From positions 299,080 to 331,079 of the forward strand of contig JAHLKV010000005.1 in assembly GCA_020444475.1 (NCBI GenBank): DNA of 32,000 bases, written 5' to 3'. Every line of letters begins with the position of its first letter. Within the stretch, counting starts at the first letter, position 1. The notes beneath the pieces are model-generated. The model was given only the letters and a program-made list of their open reading frames with translations. It was not told the origin of the DNA and made no database searches. The DNA comes from a bacterium. Its GTDB lineage: Bacteria; Zixibacteria; MSB-5A5; GN15; FEB-12. The position numbers were made by a program, and so were the translations under genes. Positions 1-32,000 of this stretch are shown here, one piece after another.

Positions 1-438
1 GTACCAACTTCCGAACTCGCTTGGATGACTTGCAGATAAGTTCCCCGTATTGGACGAACTGTGCAGGAGCCTCTCGGATCCTCGCACGAAGCTGATAGCC
101 TCTCAACTACATGAACTGATGAAGGGTTAGGCGAGACTCGTTCAGTGATTTGCACCTGTGGTTCTCCGGACTTAGCAATGCAGATGCGCGGGATCACGTA
201 TCGGTGGAAACAGGACGAGTACCGAGGCAAGGAGTTCGACGACCACACGCACCTGGGTTCCGTTGTGAAGCGTTCGAAGAAGTGAACGGGGTCAGGTACC
301 ATCTGGTATCCTGTGACTACCTGGGTTTCGCACCCAAGCTCATCGTGGAAACATAGAATGCTCTTTGTGGTTGTTCAGACGCGCAGTATATTCGGTCAGA
401 AACGTTAGGAATCCCCTTTTCCGGGCCTGAATCGCCAC

Positions 439-543
439 ATGACTTCAGACACTGATTCATCGACTCAGCCGACTCAGAATCGCCAGATTCGAGTCTTTGT
501 CTCCGTCACCTTCTTGTTTGAGGAGATACACCGGATTGTCTGA
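439..543 (+). pseudogene. 34-codon relic resembling the first strand/helix of a DUF4062-type domain
   Basis: ATG439..TGA543 reads MTSDTDSSTQPTQNRQIRVFVSVTFLFEEIHRIV*. The IRVFVSVTF core parallels IRLFVSSTFTDFKHER at the N-terminus of the 3561..7508 gene. It is far too short to form a domain. Confidence 0.25.
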
Positions 544-655
544 AGACGTACAAACAACCCAAGAGCTACGCTCGTCAGTTGCCGGTCATGTTTGGCACTA
601 GGCGTCATGGAAATCAGAATGATGCAACATTTACGTTCTGATGTAGGAGGTGTAC

Positions 656-2248
656 ATGCTCCCGACTGCAGTTGTGCTCAGCAGGATAAGTCGCCCACCC
701 ACCCGTTCGGATGTACTCCACTGCAAGCAAGTCCGCTTGGAGTTGCTTGGCAATGAGGAACGGGACTACTTCGAGCGGATGTTCCCTCGTTTCTTTGAGG
801 ATGCTCAGGAGCATCCGCGGAGGAGACAAGCAGAAAGACTCGGCCTACGTTGCGAGGAGCCCTACAATGAACGGCGGTTTGGCGTTCGCGGTTTGCCCCG
901 TGGCAATTACTACACTCTCTGCTCACCAGAAACAGGCTTCTCCCAGCAGACGTTGGCTATGGAGCTTCTGGCGTACGCGATAGTACCCCGTGACTTTGTG
1001 GTGGAGGCTATCGACGTTGCCGACCCCGCGGCAGCGGAACTCTTGAGCAGTATCGACAGCGAGATTGCATCGCGCTGCAAGCACTATCAGAATCGCTGCA
1101 TTGTTGTCGTGGAGCGGCAACTTCAGCCAAATGCTGGCGGGTTAGGTAGTCCGAGGGGGATGGTGATCCCTTACCGGATTGCGGGCTTGAATAGGCAGAT
1201 GGTTCTTGATCTTAGACAGAGGGACGCGATGGAATGGCTTCTGCGGATTCTCTGGGAGTATTTCCCCGGGACGCTGTTCCTGAATGTGGAGACTAATCCG
1301 CCGCGGGAGCTTGGCGACCGAAATCTGGGCTCCGCTCTTCCTCCCGTAAGATTCATGGGCGATCCTCGGCAACTGGAGAGAGTGATAAACAGCTCCGAGG
1401 CCGGGAAATTCGACATCAGGAATTGCGGACTCGGAGCAATCTTCGGCAACCGTCATCCGTTCCTAACGCTGCTTCAACTCATCCTGAACCCGGCTCTTGG
1501 CGGGACATCCGTCGACGACATAATTGGGGAGCTTCTTGTTGCCGTTGGCGTGGACTGTCTCGTCTATCCCTCGGCGCGACACGACTGCGGTGCATACTAT
1601 GACGGTAGTGACCTAGTCGCTCATATTGGTTGGCACGCGGTCGATTACAGCAGCTTTGGTTCTTCACCCAACCATCTGGGTACGTACATGATCGATGATC
1701 TTGAATCTTATCTCAACATTCTTGGGAGCATCGAGTTCTTCCCCAGCCGACACGCAGAAGACCCGTGCAGTGTGGATAGTTGGCACCTGCACGGCACAGC
1801 CGCGGCCACTAGGGCTGCGGTTCTCCGTCGAGCATGGCAGTCGAAAATAGAACTGGAAAGTACGGACTTCTCTCTTGAACCCAACGTCATGGTTGAACGC
1901 ACTCCTTGGTTGTCGTACACGCATGGCAACATGAATCGAAAACCGAGAGTGTTTGAGAATTGGTTTGATGTTAGGTTGGCCATTATCACGAAGGAGATCA
2001 ACTTAAAATCATTCCTCCTGAACAAGGATCGGGAACGAACTTCGATCATGGTGGGGGATTTCTTAGTTGCGCTGTCGCAGAATCACGATCTTTGGGGTTC
2101 TGGAATCACTGCAACAGGCTTTGACGAGGACGATTCGTTTCTAACGCAGAACAACGGCGACATTATCTGTCCGGCATGCGGAGATCTTGACAGACAGCTT
2201 ACCCTGTTACGCATGAGACGCTGTTTGCGTTGTGGATTTCCGGAGTGA
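656..2248 (+). CDS. Hypothetical protein with RES-like motifs and a C-terminal CxxC..CxxC zinc ribbon
   Basis: Long ORF. AGGAGG at 645-650 lies 5 nt before ATG656, so ATG656 is preferred over the track's GTG650. Motifs: RRFGVRGLPRGNYYTLCSPE..AMELLAY and VDCLVYPSARHD. C-terminus: CPACGDLDRQLTLLRMRRCLRCG. Confidence 0.8.
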   Translation: MLPTAVVLSRISRPPTRSDVLHCKQVRLELLGNEERDYFERMFPRFFEDAQEHPRRRQAERLGLRCEEPYNERRFGVRGLPRGNYYTLCSPETGFSQQTLAMELLAYAIVPRDFVVEAIDVADPAAAELLSSIDSEIASRCKHYQNRCIVVVERQLQPNAGGLGSPRGMVIPYRIAGLNRQMVLDLRQRDAMEWLLRILWEYFPGTLFLNVETNPPRELGDRNLGSALPPVRFMGDPRQLERVINSSEAGKFDIRNCGLGAIFGNRHPFLTLLQLILNPALGGTSVDDIIGELLVAVGVDCLVYPSARHDCGAYYDGSDLVAHIGWHAVDYSSFGSSPNHLGTYMIDDLESYLNILGSIEFFPSRHAEDPCSVDSWHLHGTAAATRAAVLRRAWQSKIELESTDFSLEPNVMVERTPWLSYTHGNMNRKPRVFENWFDVRLAIITKEINLKSFLLNKDRERTSIMVGDFLVALSQNHDLWGSGITATGFDEDDSFLTQNNGDIICPACGDLDRQLTLLRMRRCLRCGFPE

Positions 2249-2312
2249 ATCCACTTCGAGGTCACTCTTGTTTTGGGGGATACAGGATTGCGATCAACAA
2301 GCGAATGCAGTA

Positions 2313-2334
2313 GAACGTCCCTGATGAGACGTTC
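2313..2334 (+). other. Perfect 7-bp stem hairpin (GAACGTC-CCTGATGA-GACGTTC)
   Basis: Read directly from the sequence. It sits 65 nt after the stop at 2248 and 49 nt before ATG2383. No U-tract follows, so it is not a canonical intrinsic terminator. Confidence 0.3.
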
Positions 2335-2382
2335 CCGATCCACAGCGTTCGGCATCAATGACTTCACGAAAAGGACACGCCT

Positions 2383-2752: not shown

Positions 2753-3313
2753 TTAGCCCAACACCCGGCTCCGCCAGCCGCGCTTCTCAACGGCCCTGAC
2801 GTTCTCCACTGGTCCGAGCACTTCCAGATACTTCAGAAGCAAACGAAGCTCATCATCCGCCGGATCCCCCTCAAACGGTCTGACGATTACGCCATTGCCA
2901 TAGTTCTTGGCCAGCTTCTCCGGGGAATCATCAATCATGATAATACGCTCTCTCTGAAACCCCTTACGCGTGAGCTTCTTCAGGTCCTTGCCGGACACGG
3001 GCACTCCGGCTTCCGGGTCATACCGTCGCGCACAGTTGGACGCCGACCAGACAAACGCCAACCGCTCCGGTCCCCCCAGCAACTGCCTCACTACTGCGTC
3101 GGCGTATAAAACGCCTGAAGATGACCAGACACCCACCGCAAACCAGTCCAGGCAGGTCTGGAGAAACTCATCAACTCCCGGTCGCTTGTAAACGTAGTAG
3201 TCGAAAACGCGGAAGTCCCACCTGTTCGGCAGGGGCGTCTCCACGGCATGAATCAGCGTCTCATCGAGGTCAAGTACTAACAGTTTGTCGAATCGTGGCA
3301 TGAGGTGATCCAT
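2753..3313 (-). CDS. HAD-superfamily phosphatase of the FCP1/SCP (NIF, NLI-interacting-factor-like) type
   Basis: LVLDLDETLIH (DxDx(T/V) with the FCP1-type DLDETL context), followed by YVYKRPGVDEFL and MIDDSP. The start is uncertain: ATG3313, ATG3301, or the track's GTG3382. Confidence 0.85.
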   Translation of the reverse strand: MDHLMPRFDKLLVLDLDETLIHAVETPLPNRWDFRVFDYYVYKRPGVDEFLQTCLDWFAVGVWSSSGVLYADAVVRQLLGGPERLAFVWSASNCARRYDPEAGVPVSGKDLKKLTRKGFQRERIIMIDDSPEKLAKNYGNGVIVRPFEGDPADDELRLLLKYLEVLGPVENVRAVEKRGWRSRVLG

Positions 3314-3560
3314 CAACGAGTCCGCCTGCTTCGCAGTTATATACGCAGAGGCGCGGTCGGGGTCAAGTCTATCACATGGCACGGGCGCGTTTGATGACAG
3401 CAGAGAATCCTTGACGAATGGCTACATATTTGTCTATGTTTCGGTATCGTTGCGGCGCGCTACCTGGTCAGTTCCCCGGGCCGTAACGCAGGGGTATCCA
3501 CTGCAGCTGGGCGGGCAAGGGCGCGGGTCAATCAAACTGCTCATAAGAGATCATACGATC

Positions 3561-6500
3561 ATGACGGACAACCAAGTACTCCCTCGCCATCGCCCCATCA
3601 TCCGGCTCTTCGTCAGTTCGACGTTTACTGACTTCAAGCATGAGCGCGATGTTCTTCAGCGCGAAGTCTTCCTGAAGCTGGAACGACACTGCGCAAAACG
3701 GCAGTTTCAGTTTCATGCGGTCGATCTGCGCTGGGGTGTTCCTACCGAGGCCAATAAAGACCACCGCACCATGCGCATCTGTTTTGAGGAACTCCGTCGG
3801 TCGCAGGAGATCTCGCCTCAACCTAATTTCTTGATCCTGATGGGTAACCGCTACGGCTGGCAACCCCTGCCCGAAGAGATCTCTGAGGACGAGTTCAACC
3901 AACTCCATCGGGTAGCCTTGCCGGATCGGGAGAGAACGATACTTGGAGAGTGGTACAATCGGGACGACAACGCCCTCCCCCCTGTCTACATCCTTCAATC
4001 CCGCAAGATCAAGCGTAATGACGGCCGGGACTACACCGATGACGAGGTGTGGAAGGGAATCCAAAGTACACTATGGGATATTATCAATCGCGCCTATCCG
4101 GATAACGGACTCGCCGAGCGTTTCGCCCATCACGTGGCACTCGACCAGCCGCTGCCGTCAGTCGTGCGCTTCCAGGCGTCCGCCACCGAGCAGGAAATCT
4201 GGCGCGGTGCCCTCGGAGCGCCAAACACCAAAGAACATGTGCTGGCCTTTATCCGTGAGATTGAGAACCTGGCCGACTTTCCGCAAGCCGACCAGATCGG
4301 CCAGTTTGTCGATGTCGAAAAGCATGAGGTCAACGCGGTTTCGCAGACTGCCCTGAATGATCTCAAGACCGAAGTCATCAAGAGGCTTGGAGACGGCAAC
4401 ATAATCACGAGCGATCCGGTGCGACTGCTGTTGGCGACAGACAGGGATGGCAGACCATCGGCTGACGTTTCCACCGAGCACCTGCCGGAGATGTGCACCC
4501 GCATCTATACCGCTCTGGAGAGCATCATCGACCGGCAGATGAATGAATACTGGGACACCGAAGGTACCGATGTGGCTCCCTCGCGATTACTCGAGCTGGA
4601 ACGCAACGAGCACCGGCTTTTTGGCCGGGAGCGGGCGCCGATTGAGTCCTTTGTCGGGCGGCAGCGGCCTCTTGAGACTATCGGCGACTATATCAACAAC
4701 CAAACTCAGGGGCTGCTGGTGATTCATGGAGCCTCCGGCTGCGGCAAGACGGCGCTATTGGCCCGCGCCGCACAGGAGGTTGCCCCGGAGCGGCATCCGA
4801 TTGTTCGGTTCATTGGTGTGACACCTCACACGTCCGATATCCGCTCATTGCTCAGCAGTCTATGCCAGGAACTGCGGGAGCGCCATCCTATCGACAGCCC
4901 GCTACCCACAGAGTACCAGCCGCTGGCGCAGGAGCTGTTGCAGCATTTAAACGCCGCTACGGCCGAAGAGCCGGTGATCCTATTCTTAGATGCCCTGGAC
5001 CAGCTGGCCGACTCCGATGACGGCCGCTCCCTGCACTGGCTGCCGACCGATCTCTTGCCTGAACATGCGAAAGTGATCGTCTCTTGTCTCTCCGAGCGCG
5101 CCCCCGAGGATCCGGCCGGACGGCCGTATGCCGCACTCAGGGAGCGCGTACTCTCGGACAAGAACTTCATTGATCTTGACGCGCTGGCTCCCGAGGAAGC
5201 CCGGGAACTTCTTTTTGATCGTTGGCTTCCGCAGGCGGGACGACGGCTCGATGCCGAGCAGTCCGAAACTGTCGCCAGGCAGATGGAAAAGCAAAGCTGT
5301 CGGGCGCCTCTCTATTTGAAGATTCTTTTCGAAGAGGCCCGCCTGTGGCGCTCATCTGAACCTGTGCCAGAACTGGGAGACGATGTCCCGGCACTGCTTG
5401 GTGATTTGCTTGATCGTCTCGGCGATTCTTCCAACCACGGGATAACGGTAGAACGCGCGCTCGGCTATATCGCGTCGGCGCGTCGGGGCCTGGCGGAATT
5501 GGAGATTCTGGAGGTCCTTTATCGCGATCCGGAATACAGGTCATTCCTCGACCGAGTCACAGAAAAGACCGGTCATACCCTGCCGGACATTCCGCCTCGG
5601 ATACCGATTGCCATCTGGGCACGACTTCGTTCTGATCTGGCGCCGTATCTGTCCGAGCAGGCCGCGCCCGGCGCCACCGTGCTGAACTTCTACCACCGCC
5701 AGATGTCTGAAACGGTGCGGGGAAGGTTTCTCAAAGGTGAGAAGAGATGCCGGCATTTTCACACGTCGTTAAGTGAGTATTTCGATAGCAGGAATCTGGA
5801 TTCGCGCAAAGTTGATGAACTCCCCTGGCAGCTGGCTGATGGGACAGCCTGGCAGAGGCTGTATGAGCTGCTGTCCGATGCGGACTTTCTTAGGGCTATA
5901 TGGATTTATAGTGGTTATGATGTCAAAACTTATTGGGCACGCATTGAAGAGTCCTCGAACCTGACACAGCTCAACGGCTATAGAGATGCCATAGAGTGTC
6001 CAGAATCAGAGCCCGACAAGAAATTCCTCGGGACGATAGCACTGCTGCTTTTCGACACGGGTCATCTTGACGAATCGTTCGAACTCGCACAGCACCTAAT
6101 AGAATACCATCGGCAGGCTTATGACGCTCGCAGATTCTTGGCATGCCTTACTCTGCAATCGAACATACTTCAGTTGCGCGGACGGTTCATAGAGGCCCTC
6201 CAGTCGCTACAGGAGGCAGAACAGTTTTCTCGGCAAATAGGAGACAAGACAGCCATAATGATCAGCATAGGCAACCAAGCCCCGATCTATTTGTCGCAGG
6301 GCAATCTTGACTGCGCCATGGAGAAGAGCCAACAGCAAGAACTTATTAGCCGGGAACTTGGTAGCATGAGCGGACTTCAGGCCAGTTTGGGAAACCAAGG
6401 GATGGTCCTGTATCGTCGTCGCGACTTTGACGCTGCTATGGCGAAGTTCAAGAACCAGACATCGATCTGCCGAGAATCGGGTAACATGACCGGGCTCTCA

Positions 6501-7551: not shown

Positions 7552-7848
7552 ATGGAGCATTGTAGCCAAGCAAATGATCTTTTTAGTTCTCGCAATAATT
7601 ACGGGGCGATGGCGCCTCTGAAAGAACAAGAGAGGATCTGCCGCCAGCTGGGGAATGTGAAGGGCGTGGCAATATCGCTTGCCAATCAGTCCATCATCCT
7701 GGCCAAAGCGGGTCGGGTACAGGAAGGGTTGTCAAAGATAGAAGAAGCTCATCAGATGGCAGTCAAGTATGGTTACGCGGCTGTCGCGGCCCAAATCGAG
7801 CCAATGCTCTACGCCATCCGCCAGGCCGCGGAGGGGAGCAAACAGTGA
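7552..7848 (+). CDS. 98-aa stand-alone repeat/cap protein, paralogous to the C-terminus of the upstream STAND protein
   Basis: YGAMAPLKEQERICRQLGNVKGVAISLANQSIILAKAG.. follows the same 40-aa repeat grammar. The tail AAQIEPMLYAIRQAAE mirrors LRLEIEAVLKEIRQQIDE. AGGA lies 7 nt before ATG7552. Confidence 0.6.
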   Translation: MEHCSQANDLFSSRNNYGAMAPLKEQERICRQLGNVKGVAISLANQSIILAKAGRVQEGLSKIEEAHQMAVKYGYAAVAAQIEPMLYAIRQAAEGSKQ

Positions 7849-15003: not shown

Positions 15004-15135
15004 GGATGTGACCTGGTGTCTGGCACTGCCATTCGAGCGTCCGGAAGAGTGCGGAGGATAGTTGGAGAACAATGAAACTGATTGCCCATAGTCCGAACAA
15101 TGTCCTTTGTCGTTCAAATACGGGGGAACCTCGCT

Positions 15136-24715: not shown

Positions 24716-24731
24716 TGCACACTCCGTGCCT
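24716..24731 (-). promoter_or_regulatory. Candidate sigma54 (-24/-12) promoter for the minus-strand operon
   Basis: The minus strand reads AGGCACGGAGTGTGCAAT, against the consensus TGGCACG-N4-TTGCW. GG and GC are separated by exactly 10 nt. The site is intergenic, about 70 nt upstream of ATG24645, and divergent from a sigma54-activator-type gene. Confidence 0.5.
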
Positions 24732-24919: not shown

Positions 24920-26614
24920 ATGCAGATAGACACCATTCGATTTTATGGGTATCCGTCCGCCAACTCACCTTCCCCCTATATTCTCGCTTTCGAAACGGCT
25001 GACGACCTGAAAAGAGCTCGTGAGAACATCCGCCTTGGCGCATTGCTCATGCGAAACGATGATCTCGAAGAACTCTGTGAATACGAAACCGTCATCCGCG
25101 ATCGTGGGAAGAAACACCCCGCCAGGAGTCTCCTTAGCTATTTCCTTCACGGGAAGCGGACCCGCTCCGATACCCGCATGCCGATTCTTCGCTGTGAGTA
25201 CATCGAAGCGGGGCGGTTGATAGCGAGTGTCGCGGGCTTGCTTGACCATGCAGCAGACCGGGGAGTACGCAACACCTACATCCTGGGGGTTCAGCCAGAC
25301 ATCTTCGAGGAGTGCTTGAGAAGTATCGAGGGCGATTCGGCAGGGTATGGCGGTGCCCATTGTGCTGCCTCGAAGGCAGAACTGACGGATCGCCCAGTAG
25401 CGGAAGAGATGCTGGATATTCTGACCATCAGGGAGGTTCCGGAAGCAGTCTCTTCGCTGTACCTCGGTACTTCGAAAGAGGTACAGCTGGTGCATCAGCT
25501 TATCCTGCGTACGGCCGAAATCACCGATCCGGTCCTCATCGTTGGAGAGAGTGGCACAGGAAAGGAACTGGTTGCCCGCTCGATACATGAGCAGAGTACA
25601 AGACGAACGGGGCCGTTTCGGGCGGTCAACTGCGGCGCCATTCCCACCGAACTCTTTGAATCGGAACTATTCGGAACCACGAAGAGCGCATTTACGAATT
25701 CTGCCGAGAGGGAGGGCCTCTGGGCGCAGGCGAATGGCGGCACGCTGTTTCTCGATGAAATCGGCGATCTGTCGCTTCTCCATCAAGTAAAGATTTTGCG
25801 CGCTCTGGAAGACGGTTACGTGCGTCGGGTCGGCGGCAACATCGATGAGCCGATCGATGCCAGGATTGTCAGCGCGACCAATCGGGATTTGGCCGTCATG
25901 GTCAAGGAGGGTCAATTCCGGGAGGATCTTTATTATCGGATTCACGGCATCGTGATCTATACGCCGGCGCTGCGAAACCACCCGGACGATATTCCACAAA
26001 TGGCGATCAGTTTCTGGTCGAAGATCGCGGGGAAGAAGACGAAGGCTCTGTCGACGGCGGTGTTGGAGGATCTCAAGGCCCGACGCTGGCTCGGCAACGG
26101 TCGGGAGTTGAGGATGTTCCTTTCGTCTCTGCACGGGCTCTTCAGAAACGAGACGATCACGCCTCACCACCTGCGGGTGGTCGACATGCTTTCCGGGTTT
26201 CGGTCGCGGAAGGGTTCGCAGGCGCAGTACGAAAAGAACCTCCGCAAGGTTGATCAGTTACGGCACTACCGGAGAATCATGGAAGTACTCTCTTCGCTCC
26301 GTACCTCGCTTCGTCCCGTGCTGATCGAGAACCTGACCGACCTTCGCACGGTTACCCTCGCGCGAGTGGTCATCAACAGCTATGCGGAGAAACTCGACTC
26401 ACTCGCCGATGAACCCGAGTACTTCAGCAGTATCGCCTCGCGCCGGGTGGTGATTGAACTGGCCGATGCTCTGCGTGACTTCTCGAAATTTCTCGAGACC
26501 GGCGCCGGACAGGTAAGGGAGTACTGGCAGCGCAATGTGCAGTCGCGCTACCAGAATGTCGACTCCGGCTGCTTCACCGAAATCCAGACCCTCCTCGACG
26601 AGGTCGAGAAATGA
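24920..26614 (+). CDS. Sigma54-interaction-domain (NtrC-type, bEBP-like) AAA+ protein with a variant GAFTGA loop and no recognisable HTH
   Basis: Central-domain motifs present: GESGTGKELVARSIH (25544-25567), ESELFGTTKSAFTNS (loop at 25682-25702), GGTLFLDEIGDL, DARIVSATNRDL, FREDLYYRI, PALRNHPDDI, GNGRELR. The ~190-aa N-terminal and ~150-aa C-terminal regions match nothing I recognise. Confidence 0.9.
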   Translation: MQIDTIRFYGYPSANSPSPYILAFETADDLKRARENIRLGALLMRNDDLEELCEYETVIRDRGKKHPARSLLSYFLHGKRTRSDTRMPILRCEYIEAGRLIASVAGLLDHAADRGVRNTYILGVQPDIFEECLRSIEGDSAGYGGAHCAASKAELTDRPVAEEMLDILTIREVPEAVSSLYLGTSKEVQLVHQLILRTAEITDPVLIVGESGTGKELVARSIHEQSTRRTGPFRAVNCGAIPTELFESELFGTTKSAFTNSAEREGLWAQANGGTLFLDEIGDLSLLHQVKILRALEDGYVRRVGGNIDEPIDARIVSATNRDLAVMVKEGQFREDLYYRIHGIVIYTPALRNHPDDIPQMAISFWSKIAGKKTKALSTAVLEDLKARRWLGNGRELRMFLSSLHGLFRNETITPHHLRVVDMLSGFRSRKGSQAQYEKNLRKVDQLRHYRRIMEVLSSLRTSLRPVLIENLTDLRTVTLARVVINSYAEKLDSLADEPEYFSSIASRRVVIELADALRDFSKFLETGAGQVREYWQRNVQSRYQNVDSGCFTEIQTLLDEVEK

Positions 26615-28797
26615 CAGCGGCGAAACCGCTTCGCGTATTCCTCAGCTACGGGCATGATGCCAATGAGGAACTGGTTCTTCGCATCCATGCCGACCTGGAG
26701 AATCGTGGTCACGATGTCTGGATCGACAAGAAGGAGATCAGACCGGGCGACGATTGGCGGCGTGAGATCACCGAGGGCATTCTCAACAGCCACCAGGTAC
26801 TGTCATTTCTCTCAAAGCACTCCACCCGCGATCCCGGCGTCTGTCGCGACGAGATTGCCATCGCCCTCGGCGTGAAGGGTGGCAACATCCAGACCATACT
26901 GGTCGAAAGCGAAACTGACGTCCAACCGCCTGTGAACATCAGTCATGTTCAATGGCTCGATATGCACGACTGGAAGGACGGGCATGGTGTTGTGCACATC
27001 GTGAAAGGCGAACCCGCTGCCGGTGATACAACCTGGGAAGAATGGTACCAGACCAGGTTCGCCGAAATTGTCCGGGTGGTGGAAAGCGAACCCAGCGTCC
27101 GCTTTGCCGGCGAGATAGAAACGCTCAACGGTTATCTGAAACCAATCCAGTCGGAAGCCCGCATATTCGAGCTACTCAGAAAAGGCTACGTTGGGCGCGA
27201 GTGGCTCTTTGAGGCCATAGAGCAGTGGCGGCAGGACAAGGCAGGCAAGTCACGACTCTTCTGGATCATGGGTGAGCCCGGGGTCGGCAAGAGCGCCTTT
27301 GCCGCCCAGTTAACTCACACGCGGGGCGATACCGTTATCGCAGCCCAGTTTGTCGAATGGGACAAGCCGGATCACAGGAGTCCTGAGCGCGTCGTCCGCA
27401 GTATTGCCTTCCAGCTCGCTACCCGGCTTCCGGATTATCGCAAGCTATTGCTGACTCTGCCGGAGATTGCGAAACTGGACGGGAAGAACGCGGCGGATCT
27501 GTTTGACTACCTTCTGGCTCACCGGCTGAAGTCGGCTATTGGTGGCGGGCGCGAGCGGTATCTGGTCGTGATAGATGCCCTCGATGAAGCAGGCGATCAT
27601 GGGCGCAACCCGTTAGCGGAAATGCTTGCACGTCACGTCGGGCGTCTGCCCGATTGGCTGGGAATTGTCGTGACCAGCCGCTCCGAGTTTGATGTCAAGA
27701 CTCCGTTCCAGGCGTTGAATCCCATTCCATTCGATACTCAGTCTGAGTCCAACCGTACCGATCTCTGCTACTACCTTCAACAAAGGCTCGCTCCGCAACT
27801 CGATAACCGCTCCGACGCCGATCACCTCCTCGACCAAATCATAGACAAGAGTGAAGGCGTGTTCCTCTATGTTGAGCGGTTCTGTGACGATGTGCAACAG
27901 GACCATCTTTCACTGGACCACCCGGACCAGTTCCCGCAAGGCCTCGGTGGCATCTACTACCAGTGGTTTCAGCGGCAATTCCCCGATCCTGAGCAATTCG
28001 AGCAAACGATTGAACCGATGCTCGGCGCAATCCTCGCCGCTCGAGAGCCGTTGCCAATCGAGGTATTGCAGGGGCTGTTCGGTTGGCGCGAACCCGAGCT
28101 TCGCAAATGGCTTCGCATACTCGGCTCTCTCTTTCCGGTCAACGACGGATCCCAGGGTCAGGTTATCAGACCGTACCACAAGTCATTTGCTGACTGGCTG
28201 ACCGACGCGGAAAAGGCGGGACAGTTCTTGGTTAGCCGATCAGAAGGCTGCCGCCTGCTAGCCTGTCGCGGAATGAGCGAGTTTCGTCAACGTGCTCAGA
28301 CTATGCCGAGATATTGGGTGGCTCACTTGGCAGATCACCTCGTCGAACAACAAGAATCAGATGATCTCGAAGAACTACTCTGTTCATTCGAATTCCTGAG
28401 AGAGTATTCGAAGTATATTGGTCTTTCGTACACACCAGGGAATGAGTTTGCTGCCCGCGTTCAGCAATTCCTGGATACTCTTATTGAGCAAGACCGTCCG
28501 GCGGATCAGAAGCTGGAAGGATTATGCGCGCACATTACAGAGCTTGCAGCAGGATTAGACCTATGGGCGGTCCGCTATGTTGGAGGTCCAGATCCTAAAG
28601 CAGTCTGCAGAAACTGTGGTCAAGCTGGGATCATCCACGGTCACGTCGATCTAGGTGGCGTTGACTACTATGACAATTACTTTGCGTTCTGTACAAACTG
28701 CTTTTGGGCTTTTTTCACGGAACAGTACGCAATGTGGGGTTCGGAGGAAGCCGTTTGGGACTTTGACTATGCGACGAATACGTATCATTGGCCGTGA
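26611..28797 (+). CDS. TIR - NACHT/STAND P-loop NTPase with an unassigned C-terminal module ending in a CxxC..CxxC motif
   Basis: LRVFLSYGHD and GVCRDEIAIAL, with the TIR Glu at 26851-26853. Walker A GEPGVGKS at 27271-27294. Walker B LVVIDALDEA. CRNCGQ..FCTNC at about 28605-28708. ATG26611 overlaps the upstream TGA (ATGA). Confidence 0.9.
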   Translation: MTAAKPLRVFLSYGHDANEELVLRIHADLENRGHDVWIDKKEIRPGDDWRREITEGILNSHQVLSFLSKHSTRDPGVCRDEIAIALGVKGGNIQTILVESETDVQPPVNISHVQWLDMHDWKDGHGVVHIVKGEPAAGDTTWEEWYQTRFAEIVRVVESEPSVRFAGEIETLNGYLKPIQSEARIFELLRKGYVGREWLFEAIEQWRQDKAGKSRLFWIMGEPGVGKSAFAAQLTHTRGDTVIAAQFVEWDKPDHRSPERVVRSIAFQLATRLPDYRKLLLTLPEIAKLDGKNAADLFDYLLAHRLKSAIGGGRERYLVVIDALDEAGDHGRNPLAEMLARHVGRLPDWLGIVVTSRSEFDVKTPFQALNPIPFDTQSESNRTDLCYYLQQRLAPQLDNRSDADHLLDQIIDKSEGVFLYVERFCDDVQQDHLSLDHPDQFPQGLGGIYYQWFQRQFPDPEQFEQTIEPMLGAILAAREPLPIEVLQGLFGWREPELRKWLRILGSLFPVNDGSQGQVIRPYHKSFADWLTDAEKAGQFLVSRSEGCRLLACRGMSEFRQRAQTMPRYWVAHLADHLVEQQESDDLEELLCSFEFLREYSKYIGLSYTPGNEFAARVQQFLDTLIEQDRPADQKLEGLCAHITELAAGLDLWAVRYVGGPDPKAVCRNCGQAGIIHGHVDLGGVDYYDNYFAFCTNCFWAFFTEQYAMWGSEEAVWDFDYATNTYHWP

Positions 28798-28798: not shown

Positions 28799-28820
28799 AC
28801 GCGATAAACCGCGTTGTTTT
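28799..28820 (+). terminator. Weak candidate intrinsic terminator
   Basis: ACGCG-ATAAAC-CGCGT forms a 5-bp stem, followed by TGTTTT, immediately after the stop at 28797. Confidence 0.3.
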
Positions 28821-28967: not shown

Positions 28968-29162
28968 GTGACTGGAGCAGGTGTGAGAGATCGCGTGTTT
29001 ATAAGCAACAGCCACAAAGATCGTACGTGGTTGGGGCGGCTTCGTGTCGAGCTGGAACCCGGAATCAGTGAGAAACGGGACGATTGCTGGGACGACTCCG
29101 ACTCTTGGCTTCATGCAAGTGCTGTGTTCGAGAGGACGAGAGCGGGAGGCGGAGCCGAGTGA
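28968..29162 (+). pseudogene. 64-codon TIR N-terminal fragment (relic or mini-ORF)
   Basis: RVFISNSHKDRTWLGRLRVELEPGISEKRDDCWDDS matches the opening of bacterial TIR_2-type domains, then the similarity ends. None of the three frames continues a TIR. The stop TGA overlaps GTG29159 of the next gene. Confidence 0.45.
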
Positions 29163-29935
29163 ACGCGAAACAGGGCAGTTCAAAGACCGGCGCATGGATT
29201 TTCGTCTCCCACTCGCATCGAGATCTGGGGCAAGTCCGCCAAATCCGCAATGAGCTCGAGAAGCTTGGCCATAATCCGCTGCTCTTTTTCCTCAAATGCC
29301 TGAGCAGCGACGATGCCCGCCTGCCCCAACTCATTCGCGACGAGATTGAAGCCCGCGAATGGTTCATCCTCTGCGATAGCCCCAACGCCAGGCGCTCCGG
29401 CTGGGTGCAGCAGGAGAGGAAGTTGATCAAGGCGATGACGGGAAAGGTCATCGAGACGATAGATTTGAGCAAGGATCCCCAAACCGAACTTCACAAACTG
29501 ATCCGTCTTTCCAAACGTGCCACGGTCTTTCTTTCCTATGCCCGGCAAGACCGCGAAATCGCAGAGCGGATACGACGCGCTCTGCTTGAGCATGATTTCG
29601 GCGTTTGGTTCGATGCGTCGGTCCCAGCGGGGCAGGATTGGGCGGTGGCCATCCAGTCGGCGATTGATGACGCGGTCGCCCGTGGTTTCGTGCTTGTCCT
29701 GTTGAGTCCGGCATCACTGGCAAGCCAGTTTTGCAAGCATGAAACAGAGTATGCTCTCCAGCTCGCTGTACGCTCGCAACGTAGTAACGTCATCCCGGTT
29801 GTGGTCGCTCCGTGTGCGCACGAGGCGTTGCCGGTGCCGCTTGGGAACATCCAATTGTTCGACCTGACAACCGGCCCGTTTGACGAACGTATGAGCTCGC
29901 TCATTCACAACCTGAAGACTCGCAAAATGGAGTGA
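29159..29935 (+). CDS. Tandem TIR-TIR protein
   Basis: TIR 1: WIFVSHSHRD..SGWVQQERKL, with Glu at 29414-29416. TIR 2: VFLSYARQD..SQFCKHETEYA, with Glu at 29741-29743. GGGAGG at 29144-29149 lies 9 nt before GTG29159, so GTG29159 is preferred over the track's TTG29084. Confidence 0.85.
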   Translation: MNAKQGSSKTGAWIFVSHSHRDLGQVRQIRNELEKLGHNPLLFFLKCLSSDDARLPQLIRDEIEAREWFILCDSPNARRSGWVQQERKLIKAMTGKVIETIDLSKDPQTELHKLIRLSKRATVFLSYARQDREIAERIRRALLEHDFGVWFDASVPAGQDWAVAIQSAIDDAVARGFVLVLLSPASLASQFCKHETEYALQLAVRSQRSNVIPVVVAPCAHEALPVPLGNIQLFDLTTGPFDERMSSLIHNLKTRKME

Positions 29936-29938
29936 CGC

Positions 29939-31120
29939 GTGAGTGAATCGCCAATCAAGACACCTCGGACAAGAAAAGCCCCGCGCTCCGAGGCTCGTGA
30001 ATACTGTTTTGTCATCATGTCCTACCGACCGCGGTCGCAGTACGATCGAGTCTATCAACAGCTTTGCCAACTAATCGAAAGCAACTGCGGCCTGCGCTGT
30101 GTCCGTGCTGACCGCGAACCAGAACCAGGGCGCGACTTGCTGGGCAAGGTGCATGAGAAGATTCTTGGCTCTAGCGTCGTTGTTGCTGACGTAACAGAGT
30201 ATAGTCCAAACGTCTATTACGAATATGGTTACGCCAGCGCTCACGATCGCCTGCCGATTCTCATTGCGAAGCGCGGAGCGAGACTTCCCACGGATCTGGT
30301 CGGGAAGGAGGTATTGCGTTATAAGGGAACACCGGCAGTTGACAGGAAGTTTTCAAAGGACCTTATAGACTGTGTCAACCGGGAGTTGTGCTCGCCACTG
30401 CCCGAGCAGCGGAGAATGCTCGCAAGCGCACGTCCGTTTCCTGCTTATCTTGCCACCGCACCGCGCGTGCCGGGTGCGGGTTCGAAACACTGGTGGCACC
30501 CGGATGAAGGACAGACTTTTGGTGACATGCTTGGAGTCGCGGGCATCCTTACGGCCTACGGAAATCTTTTCGGAACGCGGAAGATTCCGCACCTACTGCA
30601 TGCGCAATGCGTCCACGCTGATGTGCTGGCACTACCTGCGTCCTTCTTCTGTATAGGTTCTCCAAAAGTGAACAAGGTTACCGGACACTTTCTTCCCTGG
30701 GTGCAGAGAGGACTTGTACCATTCTGGGAGATGCCAAGACTTGGGCGAAAGCCCGACAGGCGCGTCGTGATCAAGGGGGATCCGGATCTGGATGACCTAT
30801 TGAAACTACCGGTTGAGAAAAAGCGAGATGGCTCAATTAGTGATTACGGGCTGATAATTCGTGCGCCCCATCCATTGGATTCCCAGCACTTGGTCTTGAT
30901 TATGGCCGGCCGGCACAGCATTGGAACTCACGCCGCATGCATGATGGTAACCAGGCAGGAACTAATCAGCGCTCTTGAGCTGCGCCTCAAGAGACTTGGG
31001 GTATCGCTACGCGAAACTGCGCAGCCGTTCTGGGGTGTCGTAAGAGGAACACTGCTGTCCCAGGGAGAGATGCTATCGGAGGTTGAGATCGTCAAGGTGG
31101 GTGGGTACGTTCCCGGTTGA
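29939..31120 (+). CDS. Protein with an N-terminal TIR/nucleoside-2-deoxyribosyltransferase-like Rossmannoid domain and an unassigned C-terminal domain
   Basis: CFVIMSYRPRS..VVVADVTEYSPNVYYEYGYASAHDRLPILIAK fits the FVIMPF..aDlt..npNVfyElGyA pattern of NDT/TIR-like modules. GGAG lies 6 nt before GTG29939, which is 3 nt after the upstream stop. Confidence 0.75.
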   Translation: MSESPIKTPRTRKAPRSEAREYCFVIMSYRPRSQYDRVYQQLCQLIESNCGLRCVRADREPEPGRDLLGKVHEKILGSSVVVADVTEYSPNVYYEYGYASAHDRLPILIAKRGARLPTDLVGKEVLRYKGTPAVDRKFSKDLIDCVNRELCSPLPEQRRMLASARPFPAYLATAPRVPGAGSKHWWHPDEGQTFGDMLGVAGILTAYGNLFGTRKIPHLLHAQCVHADVLALPASFFCIGSPKVNKVTGHFLPWVQRGLVPFWEMPRLGRKPDRRVVIKGDPDLDDLLKLPVEKKRDGSISDYGLIIRAPHPLDSQHLVLIMAGRHSIGTHAACMMVTRQELISALELRLKRLGVSLRETAQPFWGVVRGTLLSQGEMLSEVEIVKVGGYVPG

Positions 31121-31267
31121 TTTCTTAATCTTGCGAGTCGCCACGTGGTTGCGGTACGGGATTATCTGATCGTCTGTTTGTATTCGGGCACTCCGACTTG
31201 AACTAATGAGCATATCCGCTGAACGAAGTCGCCCAGGTCTGACGAGGGGGGACGAGGAGATTATACC

Positions 31268-32000
31268 CTACAGCCGCGGCACTTCCAGGGGCCGGGCGCG
31301 GTGCATGATCAGCCAGGCGCCGTGCTCTGCCAGCGCCTCCTGCCCGAGTGTGACCAGGACCTCCCGCATGTCGTCCCACCGATGGAGATTCCGCAATTCA
31401 ACCAGCGTCAGATTCGCCAGACCAAACACGTTTTCCATCCGTGCGTACTGATGTGTCTGTTCGGCCCACGCCAGCATCTCGGCAAATCCGTGCCTGGCCG
31501 CGGCGACCGCCAGCAGCGCTGCTGCCAGCATGGCCATTCCTTTTCCAACCCACATCTGCCATCCATGCACTGAGGACAGCGGCGAGAAAAAAGGCACACA
31601 CAGAACAAGCGCAATACCGCCGCTCGCTGCCAGTAGTGTGCCACCGATCTTGGTCGCACGCTTTACGGAATGGGAGTTGATCCGGTTCTTCCTATGATAG
31701 AACTCCATCTGTCCTTCAACCCATTGAGTTCGGATAAACTCCAGTTCAGATGCCGCCGCCACTCTCGACTTATTGATGAAGGGATGTACGAAACCAAAAA
31801 GAGCGATTCTAATCCAGGAAAGCTCACCGATTTGCTTCGGGATGCAGTGGTCTATGACTGATTCGGAGACACCCGCAATCTGCCAGGCTATCTGAACCCG
31901 CAACGCTTCTGCCAGCACCCGGTAGTCCTCGTGCTTCTGGTCATAGCGTCCCCTTTTCGCGCGGGCATACAGGTAGATTACCGCTGCAATGAGAACAACA
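31268..32000 (-). CDS. Membrane protein, 5' end beyond the window (possible SLATT-like 2TM-type module)
   Basis: The frame stays open to nt 32000 (..VVLIAAVIYLYARAKRGRYDQKHEDYRVLAEALRVQ..). Hydrophobic segments: IGGTLLAASGGIALVLCVPFF and GKGMAMLAAALLAVAAA. The QMEFYHRKNR helix preceding a TM pair is reminiscent of SLATT proteins. The family call is tentative. Confidence 0.7.
   Translation of the reverse strand, partial: VVLIAAVIYLYARAKRGRYDQKHEDYRVLAEALRVQIAWQIAGVSESVIDHCIPKQIGELSWIRIALFGFVHPFINKSRVAAASELEFIRTQWVEGQMEFYHRKNRINSHSVKRATKIGGTLLAASGGIALVLCVPFFSPLSSVHGWQMWVGKGMAMLAAALLAVAAARHGFAEMLAWAEQTHQYARMENVFGLANLTLVELRNLHRWDDMREVLVTLGQEALAEHGAWLIMHRARPLEVPRL

What the first reader, a model, noticed from the sequence alone, without database searches (positions are those of the whole stretch)
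1..32000. Exceptional density of NAD+/nucleotide-directed and NTPase-switch domains in one 32-kb stretch
By my reading the window contains:
- five complete TIR domains in three genes, plus one TIR fragment
- one DUF4062-type domain, plus one fragment
- one NDT/TIR-like domain
- one protein with RES-like motifs
- three STAND NTPases
- four AAA+ modules
- a vWA domain
- three long TPR-like arrays

I see no mobile-element genes, tRNA or repeats marking island borders. The arrangement resembles the multi-component STAND / vWA-MoxR / TIR conflict loci proposed for developmentally complex bacteria. The presence of relics (439-543, 28968-29162) and of compositionally shifted sensor modules points to active turnover.
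Basis: partly seen in the sequence, partly recalled or inferred. Interest (0 to 1): 0.6.

Follow-up and report, generated by a model that had tools for sequence, protein, structure and literature searches.

The report
tRNA-linked defence island with sigma-54 module
The window is most of a horizontally acquired, roughly 42-kb anti-invader gene island inserted beside a tRNA-Asn gene, and its centre is a sigma-54-switched AAA+/MoxR/vWA gene cassette that keeps the same kinds of TIR, STAND and RyR neighbours in many unrelated bacteria.

Summary
Most motif calls hold. Profile searches confirm four TIR_2 domains in three genes, with a fifth divergent TIR-like domain in g16. They also confirm one DUF4062, three STAND NTPases, four AAA+ modules and three TPR arrays. 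The vWA domain was invisible to Pfam but confirmed by fold, with NorD as best match. The RES-like call and both "relics" remain motif-level only.

The clustering is real: 5 of the genome's 6 TIR_2 hits lie within 23 kb.

tRNA-Asn lies 9.8 kb past the window end, and a degenerate copy of its 3' flank lies at window 18-46. No integrase is present. The island DNA is missing from two same-genus genomes, and the vWA gene was not found in 150 genomes of the same phylum.

The island is not a pure mosaic. The cassette g12-g9 recurs in 44 loci across phyla. It usually carries the same DNA-binding-domain-less sigma-54 activator and a -24/-12 promoter, and it repeatedly sits beside RyR, STAND/TIR, RelA-SpoT and SLOG-SLATT genes. 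One metagenome contig carries eleven of the same families.

The closest described kinds are the MoxR-vWA "FtsH ternary" systems and Thoeris types III/VII. No link to developmentally complex bacteria is shown. Earlier notes of this scan flagged parts of this window.

The parts
18..46 (+). Left border: degenerate copy of the 3' flank and 3' end of tRNA-Asn (att-like direct repeat)
   Evidence: Best non-self match in the whole genome to repeat unit B beside the tRNA: 29 nt, 83% identity, same orientation, E 0.023. It lies in the 770-nt gap between the TonB receptor gene and g2.
439..543 (+). Claimed DUF4062 relic (unconfirmed)
   Evidence: No Pfam hit. The best BLAST hits are the first ~20 residues of DUF4062-STAND proteins, at E 0.01-0.02 in a small database. 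Nothing found by blastx.
650..2248 (+). g2, 532 aa, rare orphan family with RES-like R/E/S motifs
   Evidence: No family hit. Only 7 homologues found. R82, E103 and S306 ('YPSARxD') are invariant. The PDB profile search found nothing.
2753..3382 (-). g3, NIF/FCP1-like HAD phosphatase, divergent from g4
   Evidence: Pfam NIF E 1.6e-33. An 84%-identical copy again lies divergent from a DUF4062-STAND gene in AMWB02163660.1.
3411..7508 (+). g4, DUF4062 - STAND NTPase - MalT-type TPR sensor
   Evidence: DUF4062 E 5e-9, AAA_16 E 2e-12, TPR_MalT E 1.7e-20. Walker A GASGCGKT at residue 440. GC3 falls from 0.67 to 0.53, rank 3 of 347 long ORFs.
7552..7848 (+). TPR remnant ORF after the g4 stop codon (possibly the old 3' end of the sensor)
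   Evidence: blastx E 6e-13 to the TPRs of the L031 DUF4062-STAND and E 7e-8 to g4's own TPRs. Reading frame shown.
8000..11155 (+). g5, N-terminal domain of unknown kind + AAA+ + RyR repeats + basic tail
   Evidence: RyR E 1.1e-14, AAA E 8e-5. PDB RyR repeat hit E 1.9e-20. It carries the only RyR domain in the genome. Orthologues or RyR proteins lie beside the cassette in about half of the full-length loci.
11206..15003 (+). g6, TIR - NB-ARC STAND - TPR_10/12 array
   Evidence: TIR_2 E 4e-13, NB-ARC E 3e-7, TPR_10 E 3e-101. FxSxx_TPR 391 bits. The putative catalytic Glu motif CQWE is present.
15082..15648 (+). g7, 188 aa, unknown
   Evidence: No hit in Pfam, PADLOC or NCBIfam.
15736..16059 (-). 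Small DUF4032 gene, last gene of the minus-strand operon
   Evidence: Pfam DUF4032 E 5.6e-8. Coordinates. The same position is occupied in AMWB02163660.1.
16052..18016 (-). g8, TPR protein
   Evidence: TPR_1, TPR_2 and TPR_16 at E about 1e-17. 50% identical copy in AMWB02163660.1.
18027..19178 (-). g9, 383 aa, unknown; fourth conserved cassette gene
   Evidence: No family hit. A homologue follows the vWA gene in 43 of 46 related loci.
19208..21346 (-). g10, all-alpha N-terminal domain + divergent vWA (probable start at M46 of the long ORF)
   Evidence: 96 homologues of about 705 aa, none with a Pfam domain. MIDAS motif is invariant. AF2 model pLDDT 77. Foldseek best match NorD VWA 9qhd_G at E 6.9e-8; the MDN1 MIDAS domain also matches.
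21354..22364 (-). g11, MoxR-type AAA+ (AAA_5)
   Evidence: AAA_5 E 2.4e-5. Walker A reads GPTGSAKS; I recall this as MoxR-typical, not tested. 78% identical to the AMWB02163660.1 copy.
22384..24645 (-). g12, 753 aa: P-loop-less N-terminal half + Clp-D2-like AAA+
   Evidence: AAA_2 E 4e-10. ClpA model E 1e-18 over residues 447-675. A single Walker A at residue 484.
24716..24731 (-). Sigma-54 type -24/-12 promoter (AGGCACGGAGTGTGCA), 71 nt upstream of g12
   Evidence: Equivalent sites scoring >=17 (background 4% per 430 nt) lie 25-209 nt (12 of them 25-74 nt) upstream of the g12 homologue in 14 of 34 related loci. It is the only well-placed intergenic site in the island.
24920..26614 (+). g13, sigma-54 activator (bEBP): receiver-like N-domain, AAA+, four-helix C-terminus, no HTH
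   Evidence: Sigma54_activat E 2e-59, no HTH_8 hit. AF2 model pLDDT 85. Foldseek aligns about 380-420 columns to receiver+AAA chains of NtrC1, NtrX and LuxO. Full-length homologues lie divergent from the cassette in at least 20 loci.
26611..28797 (+). g14, TIR - NPHP3_N/TANC1-type STAND - divergent C-terminus; start overlaps the g13 stop by 4 nt
   Evidence: TIR_2 E 3e-24, NPHP3_N E 2e-22. GC3 falls from 0.67 to 0.47, rank 1 of 347 long ORFs. The AMWB02163660.1 copy is 65% identical over residues 4-576 only.
28968..29162 (+). Claimed TIR relic (unconfirmed)
   Evidence: No Pfam hit. Best BLAST hit is g15 TIR-1, 33 residues, E 0.011 in a small database.
29084..29935 (+). g15, tandem TIR-TIR protein (ThsB-like)
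   Evidence: TIR_2 E 4e-38 in two stretches. Several PADLOC ThsB models at E 6e-11.
29939..31120 (+). g16, divergent TIR/NDT-like N-domain + unknown C-domain
   Evidence: PADLOC TIR-effector model E 1.9e-8 over residues 46-136. Pfam TIR_2 E 0.079.
31268..32000 (-). g17, C-terminal SLATT part of a 587-aa SLOG-SLATT protein (the gene runs on to C3:332110)
   Evidence: DUF4231 E 1.4e-4, YAcAr E 2.4e-3. ShosA E 6.5e-5. Homologues carry PF14015, PF18181, PF10686 or PF02481, and one UniRef name reads 'SMODS and SLOG-associating 2TM effector'.

Best explanation
The window is about three quarters of a ~41.8-kb horizontally acquired defence island (C3:299.1-340.9 kb). It sits at the 3' side of a tRNA-Asn gene and has lost its integrase. 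It holds at least five modules.

(1) g3-g4: an NIF phosphatase gene divergent from a DUF4062-STAND-TPR receptor gene. g2, a RES-like orphan, lies beside them.

(2) g5-g7: an AAA+-RyR protein, a TIR-NB-ARC-TPR receptor and an unknown protein.

(3) A sigma-54-dependent operon, g12 to the DUF4032 gene. It encodes a Clp-like AAA+, a MoxR AAA+, a NorD-like vWA protein, an unknown conserved protein, a TPR protein and DUF4032.

(4) g13-g14: the operon's divergent activator, which lacks a DNA-binding domain, translationally coupled to a TIR-STAND receptor.

(5) A Thoeris-like cluster: three TIR proteins (g15, g16, g18) around a SLOG-SLATT membrane effector (g17).

A sixth group (g19-g22) lies beyond the window. 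It includes a ZorA/MotA-like gene and a CAAX protease gene, and I did not characterise it.

SHOWN: the domain content, the borders, absence from relatives, and recurrence of the cassette with its activator, promoter and RyR/STAND neighbours in other phyla.

INFERRED MECHANISM: The STAND receptors use their fast-changing C-terminal repeats to bind invader proteins and oligomerise. This switches on their TIR or DUF4062 heads, which consume NAD+ or make ADP-ribose-derived signals. SLOG-SLATT reads such a signal and breaches the membrane. In parallel, the activator senses infection through protein contacts at its receiver-like domain. It then fires the sigma-54 promoter, so the AAA+/MoxR/vWA remodelling machine is made only on alarm. 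That machine would act with the RyR-domain proteins on an effector or on a target complex.
For: DOMAINS.

CLUSTERING: 5 of 6 TIR_2 hits and the only RyR domain of the genome lie here. The median TIR_2 count in 40 genomes of the same family is 0.

BORDERS
- pstSCAB-phoU, TetR and a TonB receptor lie on the left.
- PDZ, HprK and SurA lie on the right.
- tRNA-Asn is at L002:9764-9837.
- An att-like repeat lies at window 18-46.

ACCESSORY STATUS
- Island DNA is not found in two same-genus genomes, although HprK is 90% identical there.
- g10 was not found in 150 other genomes of the phylum.

CASSETTE
- g12-g11-g10-g9 is conserved in 44 loci of many phyla.
- A full-length g13-type activator is adjacent in at least 20 of them.
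- -24/-12 sites occur in 14 of 34 loci against a 4% background.
- rpoN is present in the genome.

GUILD
- Among 103 large neighbour proteins within 10 kb: RyR 12, AAA_16 11, NPHP3_N 8, RelA_SpoT 6, NACHT 5, TIR_2 3, DUF4062 3, SLOG 3.
- In 4 of 5 genomes tested, every RyR hit lies on the contig that carries the cassette.
- AMWB02163660.1 carries eleven of the same families within 35 kb in a different order.

SENSOR TURNOVER.

TIR ACTIVE SITE: a Glu at the expected catalytic position is present in all TIRs (its catalytic role is from my own knowledge of TIR enzymes).

PRECEDENTS: Thoeris type III (multi-TIR + SLOG effector) and type VII (TIR + SLATT effector) are described in bioRxiv 10.64898/2025.12.03.692087.
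Against: - No PADLOC model calls a complete known system here. The hits are domain-level only.
- No integrase is present. The att-like repeat is short and degenerate (E 0.023).
- The left boundary is uncertain, because the TonB receptor gene itself is not conserved in same-genus genomes.
- About half of the cassette loci elsewhere have ordinary metabolic neighbours, so partner genes are not obligatory.
- Sharing of the guild with AMWB02163660.1 could reflect common descent of one mobile island rather than functional coupling.
- g17 is on the opposite strand to the TIR genes, so the Thoeris-like cluster is not one operon.
- The activator's GAFTGA loop reads SAFTNS in this genome, against a family consensus of GAFTxA.
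Confidence: 0.72

Rival explanations
1. Pure mosaic. The island is a sink where unrelated, independently acting defence systems have piled up at a tRNA hot spot. The modules do not talk to each other, and the activator controls only its own four- to six-gene operon.
For: - Defence islands with 6-7 TIR proteins and several effectors are already documented.
- Only one well-placed intergenic sigma-54 site exists in the island.
- Gene order differs between this genome and AMWB02163660.1.
- g2, g6, g7, g15, g16 and g18-g22 have no counterpart in AMWB02163660.1.
- Two extra degenerate tRNA-like units beside tRNA-Asn suggest repeated integration events.
Against: - RyR proteins follow the cassette across phyla. 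In 4 of 5 genomes tested they occur nowhere else.
- The gene after the activator is, time and again, a nucleotide-directed enzyme: TIR-STAND here and in AMWB02163660.1, and RelA_SpoT-RyR in L036, L037, L043 and L051.
- The 4-nt g13/g14 overlap is kept in AMWB02163660.1.
Confidence: 0.4
2. The central cassette is not immune at all. It is a stress- or maturation-type chaperone system, like NorQD or CbbQO, which insert cofactors or remodel enzymes. It is switched on by a sigma-54 activator and merely lies next to defence genes.
For: - The best structural match of g10 is NorD, in NorQD complexes.
- MoxR-vWA pairs are known maturation factors (established knowledge; also discussed in PMC7159879).
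- Many cassette loci have metabolic neighbours.
- No PADLOC hit for g9, g10 or g11.
Against: - No candidate client enzyme is conserved next to the cassette.
- Distribution is patchy and HGT-like: 0 of 150 other genomes of the phylum, yet many phyla overall.
- Neighbours are enriched in STAND, TIR, RyR, RelA_SpoT, SLOG and CHAT domains.
- The architecture fits a class already predicted to be a conflict system.
Confidence: 0.2
3. Assembly or binning artefact. The island is foreign DNA wrongly joined into this metagenome-assembled genome.
For: - The genome is a 79%-complete, 6-contig assembly.
- The island GC (about 0.56) is slightly below the genome value of 0.58.
- In the same-genus genome G001 the contig breaks 1.4 kb past the PDZ gene.
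Against: - The island lies inside a 351-kb contig, with core genes on both sides.
- It ends exactly at a tRNA gene, with a matching repeat at the other end.
- The exact flanking proteins are recorded on several independent contigs in the public collection.
Confidence: 0.04

Closest known systems
MoxR-vWA 'FtsH ternary systems', simple type (Kaur, Burroughs, Iyer, Aravind 2020, eLife 9:e52696, PMC7159879)
   Same: - An adjacent MoxR AAA+ and divergent vWA pair.
- The vWA is fused to a large all-alpha N-terminal domain.
- A third protein has a P-loop-less N-terminal half and an active C-terminal AAA+ domain.
- A standalone uncharacterised protein follows.
- It is found in deltaproteobacterial and planctomycete lineages.
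- It was predicted to be a conflict system.
   Different: - Pfam and NCBIfam class the active AAA+ domain as Clp-D2-like, not FtsH-like.
- None of the Pfam families from that work hits any window protein over cut-off.
- The paper's main text has no occurrence of sigma-54, RyR or DUF4062; NtrC-like activators appear only once, in the Introduction.
- The dedicated activator, the -24/-12 promoter and the RyR, STAND and RelA_SpoT partners are therefore additions.
Thoeris type III (several TIR proteins + SLOG effector) and type VII (TIR + SLATT effector ThsH, signal cADPR), bioRxiv 10.64898/2025.12.03.692087
   Same: ThsB-like TIR proteins g15 and g18, and TIR-like g16, surround a SLOG-SLATT protein (g17). 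All TIRs keep a Glu at the expected catalytic position.
   Different: - The effector combines SLOG and SLATT in one chain and lies on the opposite strand.
- NCBIfam type III ThcB4 scores are far below cut-off: 28-31 bits against 220.
- No signal molecule or defence phenotype has been tested.
Antiviral STAND / bacterial NLR-like receptors (Avs, bNACHT)
   Same: g4, g6 and g14 share the tripartite plan of effector head, NTPase and repeat sensor. They have intact P-loops and fast-changing sensors.
   Different: No PADLOC Avs model matches. The heads are DUF4062 or TIR. One receptor (g14) is translationally coupled to a sigma-54 activator.
Sigma-54 activators without a DNA-binding domain (for example Helicobacter FlgR and Chlamydia CtcC; from my own knowledge)
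   Same: A complete sigma-54 AAA+ core, a receiver-like N-domain and no HTH.
   Different: There is a family-specific four-helix C-terminal domain. No Asp is invariant in the N-domain across the 21 aligned family members. The gene is paired with a conflict-type operon rather than flagellar or developmental genes.
NorQ-NorD and CbbQ-CbbO (MoxR-vWA maturation factors)
   Same: The best structural match of the g10 vWA is NorD in NorQD complexes. The MoxR partner is encoded directly upstream.
   Different: No nitric-oxide reductase or Rubisco client lies nearby. Extra Clp-like AAA+ and g9 components are present, and the genomic setting is a defence island.

Membership tests
tRNA-linked genomic (defence) island | Bounded by conserved core genes and missing from close relatives | tested here: met
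   pst-phoU lies on the left and PDZ/HprK/SurA on the right. Window DNA is not found in G001 or G002, although HprK is 90% identical there. g10 was not found in 150 genomes of the phylum.
tRNA-linked genomic (defence) island | tRNA gene at one end and a direct repeat of its 3' part at the other end | tested here: met
   tRNA-Asn(GTT) at C3:340843-340916. Window 18-46 is the best genome-wide match to the repeat unit beside it, in the same orientation. The repeat is weak: 29 nt, 83% identity.
tRNA-linked genomic (defence) island | Integrase or other mobility gene inside the island | tested here: not met
   The four Phage_integrase hits of the genome are on contigs C1 and C4. No transposase-like domain appeared.
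MoxR-vWA FtsH-type ternary system (Kaur et al. 2020) | Adjacent MoxR AAA+ and vWA co-chaperone genes | tested here: met
   g11 is AAA_5. g10 has a vWA fold with a MIDAS motif.
MoxR-vWA FtsH-type ternary system (Kaur et al. 2020) | Third component with two FtsH-type AAA+ domains, the N-terminal one inactive | tested here: inconclusive
   g12 has a single Walker A at residue 484 and an N-terminal half of about 450 residues without a P-loop. The active domain scores as AAA_2/ClpA-like, not FtsH.
MoxR-vWA FtsH-type ternary system (Kaur et al. 2020) | vWA fused to a large all-alpha N-terminal domain (simple type) | tested here: met
   In the AF2 model, residues 1-300 are all helices and residues 313-615 are alpha/beta.
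MoxR-vWA FtsH-type ternary system (Kaur et al. 2020) | Standalone NEFF1 or radical-SAM effector | not tested
   g9 has no Pfam hit. No NEFF1 model or sequence was available to me.
VMAP / iSTAND ternary systems (Kaur et al. 2020) | VMAP-C/VMAP-M, iSTAND or EAD domains | tested here: not met
   No such Pfam family hit any window protein. The exception is iSTAND at 20.9 bits in g4, below its cut-off of 24.
Thoeris | ThsB-type TIR protein with a catalytic Glu | tested here: met
   PADLOC ThsB models hit g15 at E 6e-11 and g18 at E 2.4e-16. The Glu motifs are present.
Thoeris | Adjacent effector with a signal-binding domain (SLOG, Macro, SLATT and so on) in the same operon | tested here: inconclusive
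   g17 is SLOG-SLATT by weak profile hits and by the annotation of its homologues. It is adjacent but on the opposite strand.
Thoeris | Phage-triggered production of an ADPR-derived signal that activates the effector | not testable with these tools
   This needs LC-MS and phage assays.
Antiviral STAND (Avs-like) | Effector head + STAND NTPase with intact P-loop + repeat sensor | tested here: met
   g4, g6 and g14.
Antiviral STAND (Avs-like) | Match to a curated Avs family model | tested here: not met
   PADLOC gave only TPR, mad8, PDC-S27, PDC-S66 and TIR-domain hits.
Sigma-54 enhancer-binding protein | Sigma54_activat AAA+ core with a GAFTGA-type loop | tested here: met
   Pfam E 2e-59. The loop reads KSAFTNS here, against a family consensus of KGAFTxA.
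Sigma-54 enhancer-binding protein | C-terminal HTH DNA-binding domain | tested here: not met
   No HTH_8 hit. The AF2 model shows four long helices over residues 434-563.
Sigma-54 enhancer-binding protein | rpoN in the genome and a -24/-12 promoter at the target operon | tested here: met
   rpoN at C5:492028. Promoter at window 24716-24731, and conserved equivalents in related loci.
RES toxin | Match to the RES domain profile | tested here: not met
   No Pfam hit for g2 even at E<=5. The PDB profile search found no RES protein. Only the R/E/S motifs are conserved.

The most novel reading that the evidence does not exclude
The cassette (P-loop-less/Clp-like AAA+, MoxR, NorD-like vWA, g9), its dedicated sigma-54 activator without a DNA-binding domain, and the RyR-domain proteins that follow it across phyla would together form an undescribed, transcriptionally gated immune system. 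In it, the gene slot behind the activator is filled interchangeably by nucleotide-directed enzymes: TIR-STAND here, RelA/SpoT-RyR elsewhere. An alarm raised by these enzymes or receptors would be converted, through the activator's receiver-like domain, into a sigma-54 burst of the remodelling machine. That would make it a bacterial analogue of inducible second-layer immunity.
Probability: 0.3. Interest if true: 0.8.

Novelty: new variant of a known kind. Interest (0 to 1): 0.55.

Why it matters
The density of TIR and STAND genes is not unprecedented in itself. Islands with 6-7 TIR proteins are already on record.

What is worth following is the island's conserved centre. A MoxR-vWA-AAA+ cassette, of a class so far known only from computational prediction, turns out to have three regular companions:
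- its own sigma-54 activator;
- a conserved -24/-12 promoter;
- RyR-domain proteins, which in four of the five genomes checked occur on no other contig.

This yields a directly testable hypothesis: some bacterial immune modules are transcriptionally gated by sigma-54 and work together with nucleotide-directed enzymes. It also offers a bacterial setting in which to ask what RyR repeats bind.

Comparison with the AMWB02163660.1 copy documents sensor-module replacement in STAND receptors. Both signatures are visible: a compositional shift, and a leftover TPR fragment after the g4 stop codon.

Tried and rejected
- Rfam scan of the window: no hit.
- PDB sequence and profile searches for g10, g2 and the g5 N-domain. 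They gave nothing, or only RyR hits.
- PADLOC: no complete known system. g12's match to PDC-M37B covers only the AAA+ core. g19's match to ZorA is weak, E 7e-4.
- The TonB receptor gene as a left synteny anchor. It is itself not conserved in same-genus genomes.
- Synteny in G001. Its contig ends 1.4 kb past the PDZ gene, so the empty site could not be read.
- Exact direct repeats of 11 nt or more between the two junctions: none. The repeat is found only with a sensitive search.
- Taxonomy by name. Names are withheld for this genome. AMWB is an electrogenic-biofilm metagenome, which does not help.
- Additional sigma-54 promoters before other island operons. None is convincing; one weak site lies 403 nt upstream of g17.
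- CARF-type or other nucleotide-sensing domain in the activator: rejected, because the N-domain aligns with receiver domains.
- Literature searches for a sigma-54-linked MoxR/vWA defence system found no prior description in the held library.
No read-level or expression evidence could be obtained.
- One paper search failed on a disallowed term and was repeated.

Full report
**1. What is in the window**

ORF listing together with Pfam, PADLOC and NCBIfam scans gives 17 genes.

Plus strand:
- g2 (650-2248): no family hit.
- g4 (3411-7508): DUF4062 + STAND + MalT-type TPR.
- g5 (8000-11155): AAA+ + RyR.
- g6 (11206-15003): TIR + NB-ARC + TPR_10/12.
- g7: unknown.
- g13 (24920-26614): sigma-54 activator.
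- g14 (26611-28797): TIR + NPHP3_N/TANC1-type STAND.
- g15 (29084-29935): TIR-TIR.
- g16 (29939-31120): divergent TIR-like N-domain.

Minus strand:
- g3 (2753-3382): NIF/FCP1-like phosphatase.
- An operon comprising g12 (AAA_2), g11 (AAA_5, MoxR-type), g10, g9, g8 (TPR) and a small DUF4032 gene (15736-16059).
- The 3' part of g17.

No tRNA and no Rfam family lie in the window.

**2. Check of the individual calls**

Pfam confirms four TIR_2 domains in three genes. A fifth is seen only by a PADLOC TIR-effector model (g16, E 1.9e-8). All TIRs keep a Glu at the expected catalytic position.

Three STAND NTPases with intact P-loops, four AAA+ modules, one DUF4062 and three TPR arrays are confirmed.

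The vWA call could not be confirmed by any sequence profile. Three other lines support it:
- The g10 family (96 homologues, none with a Pfam domain) has invariant DxSxS...T...D residues.
- An AlphaFold model (pLDDT 77) has an all-alpha N-terminal half and an alpha/beta C-terminal half.
- The best PDB matches of that half are NorD VWA domains in NorQD complexes (E 6.9e-8), then the MDN1 MIDAS domain and classical vWF A domains.

g2 stays unproven as RES. It has no profile hit and only 7 homologues in the large protein collection. However, R82, E103 and S306 within RES-like motifs are invariant.

The two relics have no Pfam hit. Their best BLAST hits do fall on the first residues of DUF4062 or TIR domains, but only at E about 0.01 in a tiny database, and blastx finds nothing.

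The SLOG domain of g17 lies outside the window.

**3. Is the density more than chance?**

- Genome-wide there are 6 TIR_2 hits, and 5 lie within C3:310297-332965.
- By gene, 4 of 5 TIR genes lie in 1.2% of the assembly. My rough binomial estimate is about 1e-7, which overstates significance because neighbouring genes are not independent.
- The only RyR domain of the genome is g5.
- Of seven AAA_16 hits over cut-off, two are here, and g6 adds an NB-ARC STAND.
- In 40 other genomes of the same family, the median TIR_2 count is 0. Most genomes with any have 1-3. One genome has 14, scattered over many contigs.

The clustering is therefore real and unusual for the lineage. It is not unprecedented in bacteria, since defence islands with six or seven ThsB proteins are reported.

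**4. Borders and origin**

The window is G000:C3:299080-331079.

- To the left lie a histidine kinase, a porin, pstSCAB-phoU, a TetR gene and a TonB receptor gene.
- To the right the island continues: g17 (SLOG-SLATT, 587 aa), g18 (ThsB-like TIR, 400 aa), g19 (MotA/ZorA-like), g20 (CAAX protease), g21 (He_PIG) and g22.
- PDZ, HprK and two SurA genes follow.
- tRNA-Asn(GTT) sits at C3:340843-340916 with its 3' end facing the island.
- Beside it are two degenerate tRNA-like units.
- The best genome-wide non-self match of one unit is window 18-46, in the same orientation, inside the left junction.

This gives an island of about 41.8 kb. No integrase lies in it.

The window DNA is missing from the two same-genus genomes, although HprK is 90% identical there. 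The vWA gene g10 was not found in any of 150 other genomes of the phylum, 149 of them of high quality. The island is therefore accessory and horizontally acquired. The 'would refute' condition, that the genes lie scattered in core contexts in relatives, is not met. rpoN is present.

**5. The conserved centre**

A scan of species-representative genomes with the g10 alignment returned 44 loci. They come from Acidobacteriota, Thermodesulfobacteriota and other deltaproteobacterial lineages, Planctomycetota, Nitrospirota, Kiritimatiellae, Hydrogenedentota and others.

- g12-g11-g10-g9 are kept together in nearly all of them.
- A full-length homologue of g13 lies divergent from g12 in at least 20 loci. 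It has the same N-terminal and C-terminal domains (33-60% identity over 85-100% of its length).
- A -24/-12 site scoring 17 or more, against a background of 4% per 430 nt, lies 25-209 nt upstream of the g12 homologue in 14 of 34 loci; 12 of those sites lie within 25-74 nt.
- In the window, such a site lies 71 nt upstream of g12.

The activator has no HTH. Its model (pLDDT 85) ends in four long helices. Its N-domain aligns with the receiver domains of NtrC1, NtrX and LuxO (about 380-420 aligned columns). No Asp is invariant in that domain across the family, so I read it as a pseudo-receiver. This last step is inference.

**6. Is the rest of the island linked to the centre?**

I scanned 103 large proteins (450 aa or more) that lie within 10 kb of the cassette in the related loci. 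The domain counts were:
- RyR 12
- AAA_16 11
- NPHP3_N 8
- RelA_SpoT 6
- NACHT 5
- TIR_2 3
- DUF4062 3
- prokaryotic SLOG 3
- CHAT 2

Further points:
- The ~850-aa proteins encoded just behind the activator in L036, L037, L043 and L051 combine RelA_SpoT with C-terminal RyR repeats.
- RyR is rare. In four of five genomes checked, every RyR hit lies on the contig that carries the cassette.
- One metagenome contig, AMWB02163660.1, carries eleven of the same families within 35 kb, in another order. These are DUF4062-STAND, NIF phosphatase (84% identical to g3), a second DUF4062-STAND, SLOG-SLATT (54%), TIR-STAND (65%), activator (60%), the cassette (56-78%), TPR (50%), DUF4032, a third DUF4062-STAND, and AAA-RyR.

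So the window is not only a random pile. A guild of families travels with the cassette. Common descent of one mobile island can explain the AMWB02163660.1 case. It explains the cross-phylum RyR, STAND and activator association less well.

**7. Turnover**

- The N-to-C fall in GC3 ranks g14 first and g4 third among 347 ORFs of 650 aa or more in the genome.
- Homology to the AMWB02163660.1 copies stops at residue 576 of g14 and residue 846 of g4, where the sensors begin.
- A 98-codon TPR ORF that resembles g4's own C-terminus lies just after the g4 stop codon.

Together these support replacement of sensor modules by recombination.

**8. Comparison with known systems**

- The cassette fits the 'FtsH ternary system, simple type' of Kaur et al. 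2020 in four features. It is unclear in one, because the active AAA+ scores as Clp-like.
- That paper's main text has no occurrence of sigma-54, RyR or DUF4062. My literature searches found no description of such a link.
- The g15-g18 cluster resembles Thoeris type III (several TIRs + SLOG effector) and type VII (TIR + SLATT effector, signal cADPR). It is not one operon, and it scores far below the curated cut-offs.
- The STAND genes are Avs-like in plan but match no curated Avs model.

**9. Limits**

- The left boundary rests on a weak repeat.
- The neighbour tally has no matched random control apart from the genome-wide RyR counts.

**10. Verdict**

This is a tRNA-linked defence island of a known kind. 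Its centre is a sigma-54-gated variant of a computationally predicted MoxR-vWA conflict system, with a recurrent set of nucleotide-directed partners. That centre is the part worth experiments.

Noticed in passing
window 7552-7848 (+): A 98-codon ORF just after the g4 stop codon encodes TPR repeats. They resemble g4's own C-terminus and the TPRs of a DUF4062-STAND in L031. This is probably the left-over 3' end of an earlier sensor.
   Followed up: partly
L002:9595-9733 (C3:340674-340812): Two degenerate tRNA-like units lie in tandem beside tRNA-Asn, on its 3' side. They suggest several past integration events at this site.
   Followed up: partly
window 15755-16019: This is the only stretch of the window with a DNA match in relatives (72-73% identity in G001:C4 and G017:C1). 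It lies inside the small DUF4032 gene, so that gene family exists elsewhere in the lineage although the island does not.
   Followed up: no
window 2753-3410 and L065:3638-4456: An NIF/FCP1-like phosphatase gene lies divergent from a DUF4062-STAND gene both here and in AMWB02163660.1 (84% identity). This possible receptor-phosphatase pair is not described in the sources I read.
   Followed up: partly
L002:1518-5924: Beyond the window lie a ThsB-like TIR protein with an unknown 280-aa C-terminal part, then a 683-aa MotA/ZorA-like protein and a CAAX (Rce1-like) membrane protease whose gene overlaps it by 4 nt. This may be a further module.
   Followed up: no
G000:C4:317975-320641 and C4:748056-752462: Other AAA_16/STAND-type genes cluster at two places on contig C4. 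These may be further defence loci of this genome.
   Followed up: no
L036, L037, L043, L051 (about 1-4 kb in each locus): Proteins of about 850 aa combine a RelA/SpoT-type nucleotide pyrophosphokinase domain with C-terminal RyR repeats. They are encoded directly behind the cassette's sigma-54 activator.
   Followed up: partly
L018:4701-6296: In Desulfosarcina ovata the cassette has no activator gene next to it. It is preceded instead by NACHT, HEAT and a 532-aa protein without a family. Similar 531-532-aa ORFs occur in L038, L040, L044 and L049.
   Followed up: no
G061 (same family): One related genome carries 14 TIR_2 hits spread over many contigs, so TIR expansion happens elsewhere in the family in a dispersed form.
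   Followed up: no
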